This document shows positions 5,181 to 61,415 of a stretch of DNA of 64,000 nucleotides, piece by piece. The position numbers and the translations under genes are program-made. The DNA is taken from positions 355,074,001-355,138,000 of the forward strand of contig OZ024740.1 of assembly GCA_964016885.1 (NCBI GenBank), written 5' to 3'. Below the pieces are notes generated by a model. The model was given only the letters and a program-made list of their open reading frames with translations. It searched no databases and was not told where the DNA came from. The stretch is from Eledone cirrhosa. Taxonomy: Eukaryota. Position 1 is the stretch's first letter. Every line of letters begins with the position of its first letter.

Positions 5181-5519
5181 CTAGAATTAAATTAAAAATG
5201 AAAAAATAAATTGATAAGAAAAAAATAAGACTTACCATATATACTCAAATATAAGCCAAGGAATATGTGACCAAAAAATCGATGGTAGAAGGGGGAAGTG
5301 GGGTTGGCTTATGTTTTGATGATTTTCACCAACTTCAAGTTTTACAAAATAAGGTTTGGCTTTTGCCCATTTCTTAGACATAAAATAGTGGAGTTGGCTT
5401 ATGTTCGAGTATATATGGTAATAAATAAAATACATAATTGTCATTGTTAAACTGGAGTTTGGAACATAACTTAAAAGATTATTACATAAAATATAAGAAC
5501 TTTAGAATGATCAGTTTTA

Positions 5520-6047
5520 TAACAGGTAAGCTAACAAAGAACATAGATTTTATATGTGGCCGGTGCTCTGGTGCAATAAGTAGCAGCAAGTGCTCACAGA
5601 ATACTAGCTCATTCCATTGCACAGATGGTTCTATAGAAATAGTGGACAGCTTCCGTTACCTGGGTGACAAAATCAGCAGTGGGGGAGGGTGCTCTGAAAG
5701 TACAGTAGCTAGAGTCAGAACTGGATGGAAAAAGTTCAGAGAGCTTATACCACTATTAGCCACTAAAGGGTTCTCTCTAAAAATGAAAGGCAGGCTGTAT
5801 GATGCCTGCATACGAACAGCAATGTTACATGGCAGTGAGACTTGGGCATTGTGTGCAGAGGATATACGCAGACTGGAGAGGAACGAAGCTTGCATGCTCC
5901 GCTGGATGTGTAATAGTAATATACGTGAATAGCAAAGCATAAACGAACTAAGGGAAAAATTAGAAATAAGAGGGATCAGATGTTGTTTACTCGAGAGAAG
6001 GCTACGTTGGTATGGTCACGTGATGCGCATGAAAGACGACAGCTGTC
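5520..6047 (+). mobile_element. Internal fragment of the RTE LINE family seen intact at 55000-58101
   Basis: Near-identical peptide ITGKLTKNIDF.CGRC...LRWMCNSNIRE. Confidence 0.9.
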
Positions 6048-24801: not shown

Positions 24802-24856
<55 letters not shown>

Positions 24857-24861
<5 letters not shown>

Positions 24862-24975
24862 AACCAGTAAGACCCCGACAGCTGAGCTCAAGCCGTTTCG
24901 ACGGCTAATTCTGGACTAAATGAAAATTTATCCTGGTATTTAAATAGCCGATCTTCTCAAGGGGTAATTCCATAT
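24857..24975 (-). ncRNA. Type I hammerhead ribozyme, U3:A8 core variant (UUGAGAA)
   Basis: Reverse complement of the 28866-28983 motif; predicted cleavage between 24877 and 24876. Confidence 0.75.
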
Positions 24976-25306
24976 ATGGTCAAAGTGATTGTCAAAAATC
25001 AGTAGTAATTCTGTGGTTGCAAATTAGTAGGGGAGATGGTGGCTAAACCTGCCAGTAGGAGAAAGAGGGGAGGGGGTGGAGTAGACCCAATCAAGCGTTG
25101 GTAGTGCCAGCTACAGCTGGGCATGAGGTCAAAGAAGATACTGGGGAGGGGGAGGGGGAGGAAGTCGGAACGGTAGGTAGAATAATGGGGGGTAGAAATA
25201 TATAGGAAAGAAAAAATACTGAGAGTGAAGAAAAGCAAATAAGTGTAAAGAAAAAAGTAAAGTAAATTCTACGACCTAGGTCTCTAGCTATTGTTAGGCT
25301 AGAATA

Positions 25307-25338
<32 letters not shown>

Positions 25339-25480
25339 AGTAAAGAAAGAAATAACGAAATAAGTAAAAGAACTAGGTGGGACGGATAGACAAGGACCCT
25401 TTAAGAGGTATAAGTACGTAAATGATACGGTGACGGGTCAACAAAAGGGGCCAAAATACTAAAGAGACTACCACGAAATA
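24860..25480 (-). repeat. PLE 3' pseudo-LTR (inverted partner 28317-28980)
   Basis: Near-exact reverse complement, differing by a few substitutions and (TTTC)n length. Confidence 0.95.
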
Positions 25481-26070
25481 AACAATAAAGGTTTCCATCC
25501 CGGGCACAATGCCAGCAACCACCCATGCAGCAAAGTGAACTAGTACGAGATAATAATTCTGAGTCCCGAGAAAAATATATACTAATGCTAACTCTAAAAG
25601 ATCTAAAACAAGCTACATGAAAGTTCGTACGAGGTAAAGGTAGAATACGGAAAGATAAATTCAGAATCCACCCCGCCCAAAAGAAAAGCGAAGAAAGAAA
25701 TACTGAAACGAAAAAATAAGGCATAAGTGCCACTAAGAAATATAGAGGGCACAGAGAATAGTGGGAGCGGTCGGAAAAAGGGGACAAGTATCCGGGGTCT
25801 AAACCAACTGCTATAAAAGGCGGAGTCCGCCAAATCTATCATAGACTAGGGGAGGGGTGGGGGTACTAAGGCTACAAGGGGCCAAAGGGCAGCCTCGGGT
25901 GGGCGAGAAAAGACGCCGGCAAAGGAGAAGAGCTGGGGTAGAAGGACTAAGGAGAGAGGGGGGAAGGAAATAAAGGAAGCGATAAAAGAATACAAAGAAG
26001 ATCTTACGTCTCCCTTGGCAAGCAGGGTTACCCATTGCAAAATCGGCAAGTGGGGTGTTATAGCCCTAGT

Positions 26071-28224
26071 CTACCCCCCCGGGTCATTATGGGGTTTGAG
26101 GGTGAGGTAAGTCCTACGCAATCTATGTTTACATGCAGTAACCAGTTCATCTTTCTTGTTTAGGAGTTGGTCCGTCGAAAACAGCATTTGTAAAGTTTCC
26201 TCCGAGCATAAATTGCACGGACGGCGTCCTCCCGTGTAAGAATTGGCTCTGGACAGTAATCTCCAAGTGAGATCATAGGTGATGTTGTTGTCCTTGAGGT
26301 CCCATATGTGGCCCGAAAGTGTAGTGGCGTGTCGCCGGGCCGGGTTTCGGAAGGTATGTCTATGTTGGTATAGCCGGGTCTTGAAGTCACATGCGGTAAG
26401 TCCTATATAGGCTTTGTTGGAGGTATCCGTCCTCACGTTGCACTGGTAGATCACATTACGGTCTCTGCATCTATTGTCGAGTGGGCAAATGGATCTATCC
26501 GGGCAGTTACACCTCCTGGTCGGTTCTCCACTGATATTTAGGTTATTTCTGCCATCGGGGTTGAGTTTTTTGCTGTTAGAGGAGACGATGTTTTGTGCGA
26601 AGTTTGGTGTAGTGCTGTAAGAGAGTTTGATGGTATTTTTGTTAATTATGTTGTGGTAGCGGTGTTGTAATGGGAAGTGTTTTTCAATGAGCCTAAAGAA
26701 TAGTTTCCCGATGGGAGTTGTCACCTCTGCGTTGTGGGGAGGATTGAACCATGTTACATTGCGTGAGCGGCGGTGTCTCCTGCTGGTTCCGCTAATGGGA
26801 GCTGGACAGTAGGATATTTCCTCCCGGAAACCACTCCGCTTGAGGGCCTGGTTGTAATAAGGCGCATGTTCATCGAATATCCGCTCATTAGCTGACAAAC
26901 GGGATATGCGGAGGGAGATGTTTTTGACCAGGTTGTTTGTGATGTTCCTAGGATGGTTTGATCGGCGGTGGATGTAGTGCAGATTGTCATTAGGTTTCCT
27001 GTATGGGTAGTACAGGTCGTTTTCGAGGTCAAGGGTCACGTCCAGGAAGTTTACTCGGGTCAGGGACGTTTGTAGGGTTATTTTAAATCCCCAGTCGCGG
27101 AAGAATCTGATTAATTGTTTCCGGACCCGATCTGTACTACTGGGGTTGTACCCTTTAAGGGTAAGGAGCCCATCATCACGGTACAATCCACCACCGAATG
27201 CAGGAAACATATCAGTGAGTTTGGCTATTAGGAATAATCCTATAAGATCAGTGACCTCCGCCGAATCCGTGGCGCCCATGCTGACGTCGAAGGGTGAGTC
27301 GGGAGCTCTTTTTATCCATTTAGAGTCGTCAAAGAGTAAGACTGTCTTCCTGGCGTGGAGGATGATTTTTCTTTCCTGGTCGGTGATGGGCACAAGTGTT
27401 TCGGCGAAGTCCAAGGCGGCAGTAAGTAGCGGTAAGGTGATTGAAGCATAGTAGCTCTCTATGTCGAACTGTATGAATTTAGTTTCTCGTTTATCCTCCA
27501 TATTGCTGAACCAGGAGATTACTTCCTGGGTGTTGATCCATAGGCTAAGTCGGGCGTGTTGCTTGACTTTTGGTATCACGCGGTCTAGGATTTTTTTGCT
27601 GATTCTCCCTATGTCGGACTTCGTTGGGTTAATAAGCCTGATAGAGGGTTTACGGTCAAAATCGGATTAATGGTCCTTCAGTGTGAAGTATGGTGTCCGT
27701 GGGTCTAGAGGTTCCGTGCGGTCGGCGACCCCGAGGCTGGAGGTAATTTGTTGTCCATCTCGATTTATGTCCTCGATGCAAGAGTGGTTGGCCTTTTTAT
27801 AGGTGGAGTTTAGGCTGCTCCTGATCAGTGTGTGGTATCTGTCAGGGTTGACAAAGTATAGGTTCCCGGTTTTATCCGAATGCACCATGATGTCATTTGT
27901 GTTATCATACTCTGTTAAGTTGCTACGGAGTTTTTGTAGGAATCGGTTGTGTCTGGGTTTAAATTTAATGTTCTTGACCAGTTGGAAGAGGTCATTCTCG
28001 AAGGGTGCGAGCAAAGGGTTCAGGGGCGGAGATTTGTAGGTAATAAATCCGAATCTCTCCTTTGTGCCGAAGTCTTGGTTGTCGCAATATCTGTCATAGA
28101 AAAAAGTTCTCCATCTAAGTCTTTTCGCAAATAGATCGATTTTTTGCGTGAGCATCCGAAGGTAAAGTTATTTCGGTGGGATTGGGATGTTCTTGGTAGA
28201 GAAGTCAATGTTGTGTTTTCGCAT
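26071..28224 (-). pseudogene. PLE polyprotein: single frame of 718 codons with two in-frame TAA (28170-28168, 27669-27667)
   Basis: ORFs 27667-28155 and 26071-27579 and ATG 28224 are all in the same frame. Confidence 0.88.
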
Positions 28225-28316
28225 GGTGCGGGTGAAATGAATTGAGCTTAGCGGAAAAGTCTGGATACGGCGTGGTAGGGTCGGAAAGTGCTCTACTACG
28301 GGAGTAGTCTCTTTAG

Positions 28317-28467
28317 TATTTCGTGGTAGTCTCTTTAGTATTTTGGCCCCTTTTGTTGACCCGTCACCGTATCATTTACGTACTTATACCTCTTAAAGGG
28401 TCCTTGCCTATTCCGTCCCACCTAGTTCTTTTACTTATTTCGTTATTTCTTTATTTCTTTCTTTACT

Positions 28468-28523
<56 letters not shown>

Positions 28524-29060
28524 TATTTATTTATTCTAGCCTAACAATAGCTAGAGACCTAGGTCGTAGAATTTACTTTACTTTTTTTCTTTACACTTAT
28601 TTGCTTTTCTTCACTCTCAGTATTTTTTCTTTCCTATATATTTCTACCCCCCATTGTTCTACCTACCGTTCCGACTTCCTCCCCCTCCCCCTCCCCAGTA
28701 TCTTCTTTGACCTCATGCCCAGCTGTAGCTGGCACTACCAACGCTTGATTGGGTCTACTCCACCCCCTCCCCTCTTTCTCCTACTGGCAGGTTTAGCCAC
28801 CATCTCCCCTACTAATTTGCAACCACAGAATTACTACTGATTTTTGACAATCACTTTGACCATATATGGAATTACCCCTTGAGAAGATCGGCTATTTAAA
28901 TACCAGGATAAATTTTCATTTAGTCCAGAATTAGCCGTCGAAACGGCTTGAGCTCAGCTGTCGGGGTCTTACTGGTTCCTATTACCCACTCTACTACCTC
29001 AAGTATTGAGTACTTTGGTGCGTTATGGTCCTCCTGGTTCCTTACCACATTTCTTTCGTT
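28317..29060 (+). repeat. Inverted pseudo-LTR, extending about 80 bp further to the true 3' terminus ...TTTCGTT|ATATA
   Basis: Same terminus in the independent copy at 61114-61248. Confidence 0.93.
28866..28983 (+). ncRNA. Type I hammerhead ribozyme, U3:A8 core variant
   Basis: GGAATTA-CCCC TTGAGAA GA(T)CGGCTA..TAGCCGTC GAAA CGGC-TTGAGCTCA-GCTG TC^GGGG..TGGTTCC. Confidence 0.78.
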
Positions 29061-29184
29061 ATATATATATATAGTTTTAATATAGATGAGATTCTACAGG
29101 ACTAGAACTGTTTCAAACTTTATACTCTGCTATGTATTGAGTACCTTACTTACTGTGGTTACCTCCGATTCAACCCGGAATAAC

Positions 29185-29220
<36 letters not shown>

Positions 29221-50090: not shown

Positions 50091-50219
50091 TAATCTTTAA
50101 ATATATATATATGTATGGATGTAAATATAATGTATTTTGCAATACACTTTATGCTTAATTAAAAGCATTTTGAAGACCGTAAGCTATTGTTTTAAAGTAG
50201 TGACAAATTCACTCACTTC

Positions 50220-50313
50220 GATCTCAGCAAACAGGAGGAGATAAGCCGACATGACATGTTTCGCTTTTGTTGAAGCTTATCAAGGCCAACTACCCCGCCC
50301 GTCCGCTGAGATC
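50220..50313 (-). ncRNA. Hammerhead ribozyme, U3:A8 core (UUGAUAA)
   Basis: Reverse complement of 50750-50843. Confidence 0.75.
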
Positions 50314-50749
50314 AATGATGTTATATTCTTATAGAAATCTAGTAAATAATCAGGAGCTGATTATGCAGAGCGGTTGTTGGTCAGGCAGAAATTAAAAATT
50401 AGAATTGTAGCTCTGAAATAGCAATATATATATGGATGTAAATATAATGTATTTTGCAATACACTTTATGCTTAATTAAAAGCATTTTGAAGACCGTAAG
50501 CTATTGTTTTAAAGTAGTGACAAATTCACTCACTTCGATCTCAGCAAACAGGAGGAGATAAGCCGACATGACATGTTTCGCTTTTGTTGAAGCATAAAGT
50601 GTATTGCAAAATACATTATATTTACATCCATATATATATTGCTATTTCAGAGCTACAATTCTAATTTTTAATTTCTGCCTGACCAACAACCGCTCTGCAT
50701 AATCAGCTCCTGATTATTTACTAGATTTCTATAAGAATATAACATCATT

Positions 50750-50843
50750 GATCTCAGCGGACGGGCGGGGTAGTTGGCCTTGATAAGCTTCAACAAAAGC
50801 GAAACATGTCATGTCGGCTTATCTCCTCCTGTTTGCTGAGATC
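50750..50843 (+). ncRNA. Hammerhead ribozyme, U3:A8 core (UUGAUAA); predicted cleavage after C50815
   Basis: GATCTCAGCGGACGGG..GGCC TTGATAA GCTT-CAACAA-AAGC GAAA CAT-GTC-ATG TC^GGCT..CCTGTTTGCTGAGATC. Confidence 0.78.
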
Positions 50844-51066
50844 GAAGTGAGTGAATTTGTCACTACTTTAAAACAATAGCTTACGGTCTTCAAAATGCTT
50901 TTAATTAAGCATAAAGTGTATTGCAAAATACATTATATTTACATCCATATATATATTGCTATTTCAGAGCTACAATTCTAATTTTTAATTTCTGCCTGAC
51001 CAACAACCGCTCTGCATAATCAGCTCCTGATTATTTACTAGATTTCTATAAGAATATAACATCATT

Positions 51067-51160
51067 GATCTCAGCGGATGGGCGGGGTAGTTGGCCTTGA
51101 TAAGCTTCAACAAAAGCGAAACATGTCATGTCGGCTTATCTCCTCCCGTTTGCTGAGATC
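51067..51160 (+). ncRNA. Hammerhead ribozyme, next tandem copy; predicted cleavage after 51132
   Basis: Same motif with two structure-neutral substitutions in stem I. Confidence 0.78.
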
Positions 51161-52024
51161 GAAGTGAGTGAATTTGTCACTACTTTAAAACAATAGCTTA
51201 CGGTCTTCAAAATGCTTTTAATTAAGCATAAAGTGTATTGCAAAATACATTATATTTACATCCATATATATATTGCTATTTCAGAGCTACAATTCTAATA
51301 TATATGTATGTATATATATAGTAATAATAATAAATGTGAAGAATAAAATCCGAAGAGGGCTCGATAGGGATAATATATATATAAAACCATAGAGCCAATA
51401 TTTATTAAAATAACAGATTAAAGTTTAAGAAAAGAATCGCTGCTTTCACCCTTAATGGGATCTTTAGAAAATCCCGTTAAGGGTGAAAGCAGTGATTTTA
51501 ATAAATGTGTATATACACACACACACACACACACCATACTTGACCTCTTTTTCTTGGTCTCCTAAATCACACACGCACACATTGTGTTGTTGAACCTCAA
51601 TCAGTTCCGATGATGAGTGATCCAGTCTTTTGAACAATGGAATAGTCTGTTCAATAAATTAACTTGCAAGGGACTAAACATTCCACAAACGTGTGTACCC
51701 TTAATGCAGTTCTCAGGGAGATTTGGCATGGCACAATAAATGACGTTTCACTCTCTTTGAATTACTGATACATCTCATTTTTGCCAGCTGTGTGAAGAGG
51801 AATAACACAAAATAGAATGTATTGCTTAAAGACACAACACCCCATTGGAAATCAAATTTATTAAAATTGTGTATTCATATGATATTTCAGTGTTTCTCTA
51901 TAGCTGTATATGTTCACATTTACTGTTACACTCCAGCATCAGTAATACTTTGAAGGATATGGTTAGGATTGTATATATTATCTTGCTATATTCTCTTTTG
52001 ATTGGATTGTATAGGAGAACCTCA

Positions 52025-52106
52025 TGTAGAATGACTTTTCGGCTTTCCTGATGATTTTTTTAAAAATGAAACAGTTCTAGTTCTAGTCCTGTAGAAGCCA
52101 TTTCTA
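52025..52106 (+). ncRNA. Type I hammerhead-like motif
   Basis: GGCTTTC CTGATGA T-rich/A-rich stem II GAAA CAG-loop-CTG TA^GAAGCC; weak stem II. Confidence 0.55.
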
Positions 52107-53321
52107 TATTAAACTTTATATATATATCATCATCACCGTTTTACGGTCATTCTTCCATGCTAGCATAGGTTAGACAGGTATGCCAGGTCAGGTAACCATG
52201 TCTTGCTCATACATAATGGATTTTAGCTTGATTTCTACAGCTGGATGCCCTTCCTAACACCAGTCTCATTTACAGTGAGTAATTGGTGCTTTTTACCATG
52301 GTGCCTACACAACCACTTTATAGTATGGACTGGGTGCTTTTTTTGTTGTGACACCTACATGACCACTTTATATTAGGGAGGGTGGTGGGCGCATACTGTC
52401 TATATGCTTTGGCTTCGTCTTGTACCCGCGGGAAGTCGGGTCTTCTGTATTAACCATAAAAGGCTAAGGAAATTTAAAGCTCAATATGGTTTTATAGTCC
52501 ACAACAAGATAGGTAATAAATAGTCCAGAACTTAATCCAATGGATAAAATTACAATTAAAGTATTGTTTAACACAGCATACATATAAGAACGAAAGTTTA
52601 GATAAGGATTATTATTATTAAAGCATTTAATGGATTTACGAACGTTTCATTAGACTAACAAGAAAGAATAGTCATTCCTGCAAGAATAACTCATCATCAT
52701 CATCGTTTAACGTCCATCTTCCACGCTAGCATGGGTTAGACGGGAGTTGTCTCACTTGAGGCAAGGTTGGTTGTCTTGCTCGTATAGGACTGTCTGGCGG
52801 GTTTTCTACGGCTGGATGCCTTTCCTAACACCAACCACGTTTACAGTGTGGACTGGGAGGTTTTTACCGTGTTACCTACACGGCCACATTACAGCGTGGA
52901 CTGTGTGTTTTTTTGTCGTGACACCTACACGACCTCATTTATTTTGGACTGGATGTTGTGGTACCAACATAACTTTACATCGAAAGGGGTGGTGTGGATG
53001 GGGTGGAGGTAGTGGAACGGGGGTGTATTTTTGTTAAGAGGTGCCTACTGACTGTAGGTTTCGCTTTGTACTTAGGCAAGGCGGGTCTTCTGTATTACTG
53101 TGTAGCACCAAAGATCTCGGTCCAGTGACATTGTCTTGGAGAGGTGTAAGTGTGTGAGGTCGGAATTTATCAAGTCATCCCAGGTTTTTCTGGGTCTGCC
53201 TACTCCGTGGCTACCGTCTATTTTTATCGCCCTGCACTTTTTTGCACTCATCAGAATTAATCAAATACAGAATAAAATCCTTACGTGTTTTGACTTTAAA
53301 ACATGTAATATATCTATTTGA

Positions 53322-54494: not shown

Positions 54495-58323
<3,829 letters not shown>

Positions 58324-61113: not shown

Positions 61114-61415
<302 letters not shown>

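What the first reader, a model, noticed from the sequence alone, without database searches (positions are those of the whole stretch)
28866..28983. Penelope (Naiad-type) pseudo-LTR carries a full-size hammerhead with the same U3:A8 core
Seen: CCCC-UUGAGAA, an extended stem II, GAAA, a CGGC/GCUG stem III with a palindromic loop (UGAGCUCA), then GUC^GGGG, plus distal stem I GGAAUUA/UGGUUCC. The diverged copy at 61114-61248 has GCCG instead of GCUG (G-U to G-C), supporting stem III. Known: PLE terminal repeats commonly hold hammerheads, usually minimal CUGANGA types. Inference: this autonomous family and the 317-bp array share the rare core, so this PLE lineage is the candidate mobiliser or ancestor of the retrozyme.
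Basis: partly seen in the sequence, partly recalled or inferred. Interest (0 to 1): 0.75.

Follow-up and report, generated by a model that had tools for sequence, protein, structure and literature searches.

The report
Hydra-type Penelope hammerhead, convergent U-A core
A very abundant jumping gene ends in an RNA motif predicted to cut itself; its unusual U-A core pair is already published and recurs in several other repeat families of this genome, so it does not tie the gene to the nearby 317-base repeat, and about a quarter of sampled copies have that pair mismatched, which likely means that cutting is not essential for spreading.

Summary
The motif is real: a type I hammerhead fold with a U3:A8 core at 28868-28979 (+), and an identical copy at 24860-24971 (-). 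It ends a young Penelope-like element (3,531-nt tandem unit, intact 717-residue frames elsewhere). The element is Hydra-clade (RT, then C-terminal GIY-YIG), not Naiad. U3:A8 in Penelope hammerheads is published (Cervera and de la Pena 2014), although all 26 published Hydra rows are C3:G8.

The link to the 317-bp retrozyme is not supported. There is no sequence similarity. The retrozyme's own sister families carry C3:G8. U3:A8 hammerheads also lie behind 21 of 30 GIY-YIG loci, mostly Neptune-type. End spacing is 35 versus 80 nt. None of 38 retrozyme loci is fused to this family.

More interesting: of 7,264 core matches genome-wide, the first 100 listed all have A8 and 24 have C3. A mismatched core therefore multiplied, which suggests cleavage is weak or dispensable. 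No cleavage or RNA data exist here. The scan had already reported the Hydra assignment, U3:A8 and the mismatch on other DNA of this genome.

The parts
28868..28979 (+). Type I hammerhead fold with U3:A8 core (U3 28879, A8 28884), long stem II with a large loop, 5-6 bp stem III with a GAGCUC loop palindrome; predicted cut 28962/28963. It lies in the inverted arm, antisense to the ORF at this place.
24860..24971 (-). Identical hammerhead in sense with the ORF, at the end of the 3' UTR; predicted cut 24877/24876. This arm stops at the 'short' end, 17 nt after the cut site.
26071..28224 (-). Hydra-clade ORF (RT, CxCX5C linker, C-terminal GIY-YIG), 717 codons, broken in this copy by two TAA stops (28168-28170 and 27667-27669)
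   Evidence: intact natural copies
24860..28307 (-). Left arm of the insertion: almost one whole unit (5' UTR, ORF, about 1.2-kb 3' UTR, hammerhead)
28317..29059 (+). Right arm: inverted, 5'-truncated 3'-terminal copy (the 'pseudo-LTR' of the finding), ending at the 'long' end 97 nt after the cut site
28980..29059 (+). 80-nt tail between the two fixed insertion ends; contains an RCTC...GAGYRC hairpin motif (28988-29013) about 8 nt behind the short end
28288..28307 (-). 3' part of the second RCTC...GAGYRC motif, which in tandem units lies about 6 nt behind the long end
24814..24859 (.). (TA)n target tract, left flank
29060..29073 (.). (TA)n target tract, right flank
61114..61247 (+). 5'-truncated end of an older subfamily; begins inside loop II and holds only the 3' half of the hammerhead
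   Evidence: 90.5-93.4% to four subfamily examples
50099..51299 (.). Separate element: two-armed array of the 317-bp retrozyme, with hammerheads at 50780 and 51097 (+) and 50283 (-), UUGAUAA core, and ends 35 nt apart (50947 and 50982 in the unit). No detectable homology to the Penelope element.

Best explanation
This is the terminal hammerhead motif of a young, very abundant Hydra-clade Penelope-like retrotransposon; it is predicted to cut read-through transcripts of tandem copies into 3,531-nt units, likely slowly and likely without being required for copying, and its U3:A8 core likely arose independently of the same core in the 317-bp retrozyme. SHOWN: the motif; the clade motifs; the tandem unit, with one hammerhead per unit 190 nt before the ATG and 1,187 nt after the stop; two fixed insertion ends 17 and 97 nt after the cut site; (TA)n targets; and the census of core states. 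INFERRED, from Frangieh 2024 on a Poseidon element: the element's protein nicks (TA)n and starts reverse transcription at two internal RNA sites, which here would be the two ends, each just before an RCTC...GAGYRC hairpin. Because genomic copies run through the intact cut site, the template must be uncut, multimeric or re-ligated RNA. UNTESTED: any cleavage, and any RNA.
For: [quoted passage not shown]

Young and autonomous: 150 of 150 scored hits at 98-100% amino-acid identity, about 30 of them (hand count) in open frames of 773 codons or more; five head-to-tail units with period 3,531.

Hammerhead-type constraint: 7,264 exact matches to a 20-place core pattern against 0 in the control. In the first 100 listed, position 7 takes all four bases while position 8 is A in 100 of 100 (the same,172 matches). 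Three stem II pairs change on both sides between subfamilies.

Not essential: 24 of those 100 (hand count) have C3 opposite A8 and none has G8. The same change is 24-25% of depth in runs X1 and X2, which are one sample. 37 of 37 hammerheads in 30 loci chosen for likeness to one C3 copy have it, with near-identical sequence and 92-98% amino-acid identity to the window family. In a Poseidon element, core mutants did not affect insertion in vitro (PMC11167929).

Independent of the retrozyme: no blastn match. A profile of 8 retrozyme units gives no hit at E<10 on Hydra families A-E, while the positive control scores 4e-9. A sister retrozyme family has CUGAUGA in 38 of 42 counted rows, and another has CUGAAGA. 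U3:A8 minimal hammerheads lie in sense behind 21 of 30 GIY-YIG loci, mostly Neptune-type. End spacing is 35 versus 80 nt. 0 of 38 retrozyme loci are fused head-to-head with this family.
Against: No activity data. The fold is not unusually stable, and it competes with other folds in its native flanks. The two-sided changes in stem II are few events (mostly family A versus B), and their number does not exceed the shuffle control (469 of 500 shuffles reach it); stem III shows only one-sided changes. None of 264 distinct 3'-end copies begins within -3 to +11 of the cut site, so there is no genomic footprint of cleavage. That a C3.A8 pair impairs cleavage rests on related mutants (C3G, G8C) and on recall; the paper on 3:8 exchanges was not held. 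Against independence: both elements are young, use the same (TA)n target, and 2 of 38 retrozyme loci have a near-identical copy of this family's end tail-to-tail across a TA tract. Trans-mobilisation need not leave sequence similarity.
Confidence: 0.7

Rival explanations
1. One reading: this Penelope lineage is the ancestor or the specific mobiliser of the 317-bp retrozyme, and the shared U3:A8 core records that.
For: Both carry U3:A8, are young (99% copies), insert as two arms into (TA)n, and in 2 of 38 retrozyme loci sit tail-to-tail. The retrozyme tail holds a short GCTA...GAGC hairpin that loosely resembles the Hydra motif. In Xenopus, retrozymes resemble Penelope terminal repeats (preprint).
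Against: No homology. The core toggles within the retrozyme lineage and is shared by Neptune-type and other families. End spacing is 35 versus 80 nt. The 4 of 38 retrozyme loci fused to another element involve family D (twice), another hammerhead family and an unidentified repeat, never this one; those fusions could also be deletions between neighbouring insertions.
Confidence: 0.08
2. The hammerhead is an efficient and necessary step: it cuts unit-length RNA that is ligated into a 3,531-nt circle, which the RT copies round and round to give tandem arrays; C3.A8 copies would still cut, or would be short-lived.
For: One hammerhead per unit in perfect head-to-tail arrays. Stem III is long enough for a monomer to fold, unlike the minimal forms that cleave poorly (PMC4209133). 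The core has been kept across families A and B, 63-82% identical in protein.
Against: About a quarter of sampled copies carry the mismatch, and they form amplified subfamilies. Tandem arrays can also come from uncut multimeric RNA. No copies start at the cut site.
Confidence: 0.14
3. The motif is a catalytically dead relic kept as a promoter or protein-binding structure.
For: 76 of 264 distinct 3'-end copies start between -50 and -31 of the cut site (the sample is biased by my queries). Depth over the last 125 nt is about 300 times that over the 5' ORF. The mismatch is tolerated.
Against: The 5' half (UGA, A8, A9) stays fixed while position 7 varies freely in hundreds of listed copies, which is the pattern of a catalytic core.
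Confidence: 0.08

Closest known systems
Hydra clade of C-terminal EN+ Penelope-like elements, e.g. Hydra-1_Obim, Hydra-1_Amil (Craig et al. 2021, PMC8557442; passages, section 11, supplement parts 1, 2, 52, 53 read)
   Same: Domain order, RWK-type, DKT, CxCX5C, CxxC and CxH motifs, no CCHH, (TA)n target, type I hammerhead near the 3' end in sense
   Different: All 26 Hydra rows of File S2 have CUGANGA cores, short loop II and 3-4 bp stem III. Here the core is U3:A8, loop II is about 36 nt and stem III is 5-6 bp with a 7-9 nt loop. The unit is 3.5 kb against the stated <3 kb, and the tail is 80 nt against the 30-40 nt stated for Penelope elements.
U3-A8 minimal hammerheads of Schistosoma mansoni Cercyon Penelope elements (Cervera and de la Pena 2014, PMC4209133; abstract and Results read)
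   Same: U3-A8 in place of C3-G8, in a Penelope terminal repeat, over a thousand genomic copies, long helix II with an irregularity at its base
   Different: Those are minimal forms without a stable helix III, thought to act as dimers; this one has a full helix III like the fungal and protist Penelope hammerheads of the same paper.
PAc Poseidon element of Anolis (Frangieh et al. 2024, PMC11167929; parts 1-2 of 4 read)
   Same: Two internal starts of reverse transcription that define a tail; AT-rich target; hammerhead near the start codon in tandem copies
   Different: Different clade; C3:G8 minimal hammerhead; tail 30-40 nt. Activity was measured there and not here.
Animal non-LTR retrozymes (Cervera and de la Pena 2020, PMC7229834, passages; Li, Clavereau and Pollet 2026, 10.64898/2026.07.22.740005, parts 1-3 of 5)
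   Same: The 317-bp array is such an element and shows Penelope-type insertion marks, as those papers propose
   Different: No parent terminal repeat was found for it among the Penelope families sampled here; this Hydra family is not it by sequence.

Membership tests
Naiad clade | GIY-YIG endonuclease N-terminal to the RT, CxC linker, DKA motif | tested here: not met
   Endonuclease motifs are C-terminal and the motif reads DKT (definition)
Naiad clade | No canonical hammerhead | tested here: not met
   Full three-helix motif present
Hydra clade | Single ORF with RT then C-terminal GIY-YIG | tested here: met
   VIY...YIG motif near the C-terminus, read by eye. Pfam found no family in the two fragments.
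Hydra clade | RWK-type motif, DKT, CxCX5C linker, CxxC and CxH, no CCHH | tested here: met
   RWR, DKT, CNCPDRSIC, CNLC, CKH; definition
Hydra clade | (TA)n insertion preference | tested here: met
Hydra clade | Placement inside the clade on an RT tree with published reference sequences | not tested
   Published reference proteins were not available as session sequences; best database relatives are 38-54% identical full-length RT-EN proteins, nearly all unnamed
Type I hammerhead ribozyme | Core N3 UGA N7 N8 A, GAA, A15.1-U16.1, H17, with paired 3:8 and three helices, open stem I | tested here: met
   paired 3:8 in the window copy and in 76 of 100 listed family copies
Type I hammerhead ribozyme | Match to a curated Rfam hammerhead model | tested here: not met
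   No match on 28866-28983 at E<=1; the long loop II and variant core may explain this
Type I hammerhead ribozyme | Loop I / loop II tertiary contact | tested here: inconclusive
   Distal stem I and loop II vary between subfamilies without an evident conserved contact
Type I hammerhead ribozyme | Self-cleavage after C17 | not testable with these tools
   Needs an assay; no RNA run was listed
Parent element of the 317-bp retrozyme | Terminal repeat homologous to the retrozyme unit | tested here: not met
Mobiliser of the 317-bp retrozyme | Same end geometry, or fused insertions | tested here: not met
   35 versus 80 nt between ends; 0 of 38 loci fused to this family. This does not exclude occasional action in trans.

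The most novel reading that the evidence does not exclude
A natural hammerhead with a mismatched C3.A8 core still cleaves, rescued by the long stem II and stable stem III or by the element's own protein. The family has moved between U3:A8 and C3.A8 while making roughly 1,700 mismatched copies (24% of 7,264, extrapolated from the first 100 listed on one contig). This would be a core state that hammerhead search rules exclude, and matched subfamilies would give a direct test of what Penelope hammerheads are for.
Probability: 0.2. Interest if true: 0.65.

Novelty: new variant of a known kind. Interest (0 to 1): 0.35.

Why it matters
The function of Penelope hammerheads is still open (PMC8557442 calls it unclear; PMC11167929 found it dispensable in vitro). 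This family offers matched, recently active subfamilies that differ at core position 3, so the question can be tested with two short RNAs. The case also warns that a shared U3:A8 core cannot be used to pair retrozymes with their mobilisers: in this genome it occurs in Hydra-type, Neptune-type and retrozyme lineages, and it switches within one lineage. Descriptors that demand CUGANGA miss thousands of these motifs. The finding as first stated (Naiad, rare core, ancestor of the retrozyme) does not hold.

Tried and rejected
Selenocysteine read-through, as in some Naiads: rejected, because both in-frame stops are TAA and other copies are open.

Rfam scan: no hammerhead match on the motif. Pfam on the two ORF fragments: 0 families. 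PF26215 is not in the local library.

Expression: no RNA holder listed; the runs laid are contigs of unrecorded kind and may include the sample behind the assembly, so they were used only for allele shares and depth.

Order of core states: the tree of 79 terminal sequences has the two outer groups mostly U3:A8 and leaves the forks around the C3 rows open. A 13-row tree with the ORF end resolved nothing. I cannot say whether U3 in the window's subfamily was kept or restored.

Within-subfamily mutation counts (0 in 12 core sites against 7 in 37 loop sites, 47 copies) are too few, and the copies were selected by similarity, so they were not used.

Search for the retrozyme's true parent: not found among about 1.2 Mb of fetched loci. 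Most Penelope families of the genome were not sampled, and all 12 own-genome searches are spent. Fusions with family D were considered as evidence for a mobiliser and set aside as ambiguous (one involves an older copy at 88-92%).

Metagenome relatives: 5 of 8 loci have a hammerhead, all C3:G8; there was no cross-species test of U3:A8 co-occurrence, since no other animal genome was searchable.

Literature: searches found U3-A8 in print (PMC4209133, PMC3088659) and no report of this family's hammerhead or of a natural C3.A8 core. The library lacks most subscription papers, the paper on 3:8 exchanges was not held, and supplements of PMC4209133, PMC7229834 and the preprint were not read and may list such variants.

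Full report
1. THE OBSERVATION. An identical copy lies at 24860-24971 on the minus strand. The lowest-energy fold is the hammerhead three-way junction, but it is no more stable than shuffles (z -0.09), and with flanks the helices have probability of about 0.4-0.5. A strict descriptor finds the two copies and nothing in 20 shuffled windows. Rfam does not match it. The 61114 copy is only the 3' half of the motif. Its G-C pair is the older state, so the window's G-U is a one-sided change and weak evidence.

2. THE ELEMENT. The two hammerheads are the outer ends of one two-armed insertion in (TA)n: a nearly whole unit on the minus strand (24860-28307) and an inverted, truncated end on the plus strand (28317-29059). 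The ORF (28224-26071) has two TAA stops here. Its motifs (RWR, DKT, CxCX5C, CxxC, CxH, C-terminal GIY-YIG, no CCHH) fit the Hydra clade as defined in PMC8557442 section 11 and exclude Naiad, whose endonuclease is N-terminal. The family is young and autonomous. All 150 scored protein hits are 98-100% identical, and one locus holds five head-to-tail units of 3,531 nt with intact 717-residue frames. In such arrays the cut site lies 190 nt before the ATG and 1,187 nt after the stop. Insertions end at two fixed places, 17 and 97 nt after the cut site. Each place is followed 6-8 nt later by an RCTC...GAGYRC hairpin, and a second Hydra family (D) shows the same twin motif. By analogy with PMC11167929, the two ends are inferred to be two starts of reverse transcription.

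3. IS IT A WORKING HAMMERHEAD? Related subfamilies and a sister family B (63-82% amino-acid identity) keep the core. A 20-place core pattern has 7,264 exact matches (control 0). In the first 100 listed, position 7 takes all four bases and position 8 is always A; a longer pattern for an older subfamily gives 1,172 matches with the same behaviour. Stem II has three pairs with changes on both sides, but they represent few events and their number does not beat the shuffle control; stem III changes on one side only. Against strict necessity, 24 of the 100 have C3 opposite A8 and none has G8 (hand count). The same allele is 24-25% of depth in two runs of one sample. Thirty loci picked for likeness to one such copy are near-identical, independent insertions with the mismatch in 37 of 37 hammerheads (the selection is circular for frequency but shows amplification). 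Trees do not settle the order of states. No copy among 264 starts at the cut site, while 76 start 31-50 nt upstream of it, inside loop II (biased sample). No RNA holder was listed.

4. THE RETROZYME LINK. The 317-bp array is a young family with Penelope-type marks: two arms, (TA)n flanks and two fixed ends 35 nt apart. It shares no sequence with the Hydra element by blastn or by a profile of 8 diverse retrozyme units, whose positive control scored 4e-9. A search for GIY-YIG domains turned up, by chance, an older homologue of the retrozyme (72-79% identity). That family has CUGAUGA in 38 of 42 counted rows (the count includes the window's unit as one of the two UUGAUAA rows), and a further relative has CUGAAGA. 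The core therefore switches inside the retrozyme lineage. U3:A8 is also not rare here. 21 of the 30 GIY-YIG loci fetched, mostly Neptune-type by their CxxxxCxxC linker, have a minimal UUGAUAA or UUGAAAA hammerhead downstream in sense. A census of 1.2 Mb of fetched loci shows further U3:A8 families beside many C3:G8 ones, several with long stem II; other Hydra-type families (D, E, probably C) have C3:G8-type cores. Of 38 retrozyme loci examined, four are fused without a TA tract to another element (family D twice, one other hammerhead family, one unidentified repeat) and none to this family; two have this family's end tail-to-tail across a TA tract. The fusions may be deletions between neighbours, so they do not name the mobiliser either.

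5. COMPARISON WITH WHAT IS KNOWN. Natural U3:A8 covariation is reported in PMC3088659 (passages), and in Penelope repeats of Schistosoma with about 1,300 hits in PMC4209133 (Results). Hammerheads are described as universal in the Hydra clade, but all 26 Hydra rows of File S2 are CUGANGA with short loops. The combination seen here (U3:A8, long stem II, stable stem III, 80-nt tail) is therefore a new variant of a known kind. That Penelope elements give rise to or move animal retrozymes is proposed in PMC7229834 (passages) and in preprint 10.64898/2026.07.22.740005 (parts 1-3). My searches found no report of a natural C3.A8 core; coverage is incomplete and several supplements were not read. That this mismatch impairs cleavage is partly recalled; the called source tests C3G and G8C.

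6. EARLIER NOTES OF THE SCAN. Consulted only after my reading was written down. Several unreviewed notes on other DNA of this genome reach the same points: Hydra rather than Naiad, U3:A8 published, mismatch amplified, twin hairpins. They are not independent evidence. One suggested a transcription start inside loop II, which I adopted as a rival. One reports many copies starting at the cut site of a Penelope hammerhead, which my sample of this family does not show.

7. VERDICT. Interest 0.35.

Noticed in passing
window 52048-52118 (+) and 29074-29186: Ends of another hammerhead-bearing Penelope-type family (C) with a CUGAUGA core; the 29074-29186 piece is a tiny two-armed insertion in the same TA tract as the finding and carries the RCTC...GAGTAC motif.
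   Followed up: partly
window 61740 (-): Minimal U3:A8 hammerhead (UUGAAAA core) of the type found behind Neptune-type ORFs L258 and L265.
   Followed up: partly
window 54056 (+): Short end of yet another hammerhead family (J), which has CUGACGA and the twin-hairpin tail elsewhere.
   Followed up: no
window 55000-58167 (-): Intact 1,055-codon frame of an endonuclease plus RT element (RTE-like LINE by my recall of the motifs), with a related fragment at 5438-5932.
   Followed up: no
L182:2591-6797; L214:2338-3726; L233:2100-3075: Retrozyme arrays fused head-to-head, without a TA tract, to ends of other Penelope families (D, older D, G). Either mixed-template insertions or deletions between neighbours.
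   Followed up: partly
L181:3913-6847: Retrozyme array at the centre of a 99.8% perfect palindrome that also duplicates part of a flanking Hydra family E fragment.
   Followed up: no
L216 reverse strand 1300-2300; L010:1-750; L299; L117: Further members of the 310-320-bp retrozyme superfamily with mixed cores; L216 holds adjacent diverged units, one with UUGAUAA and one with CUGAUGA.
   Followed up: partly
window 28949-28957 and homologues: The GAGCUC palindrome in loop III is kept in families A and B; two copies of stem III can pair into a duplex in silico (-27.7 kcal/mol against -5.6 per hairpin), a possible dimerisation site.
   Followed up: partly
window 28918-28932 and homologues: Strong pile-up of 5' truncation and inversion points 31-50 nt upstream of the cut site; such short copies greatly outnumber full-length ones.
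   Followed up: partly
L014, L104, L154, L156, L199, L233, L269: Many hammerheads of this genome have very long loop II insertions (40-90 nt), so an extended stem II is a common local style rather than a mark of this family.
   Followed up: no
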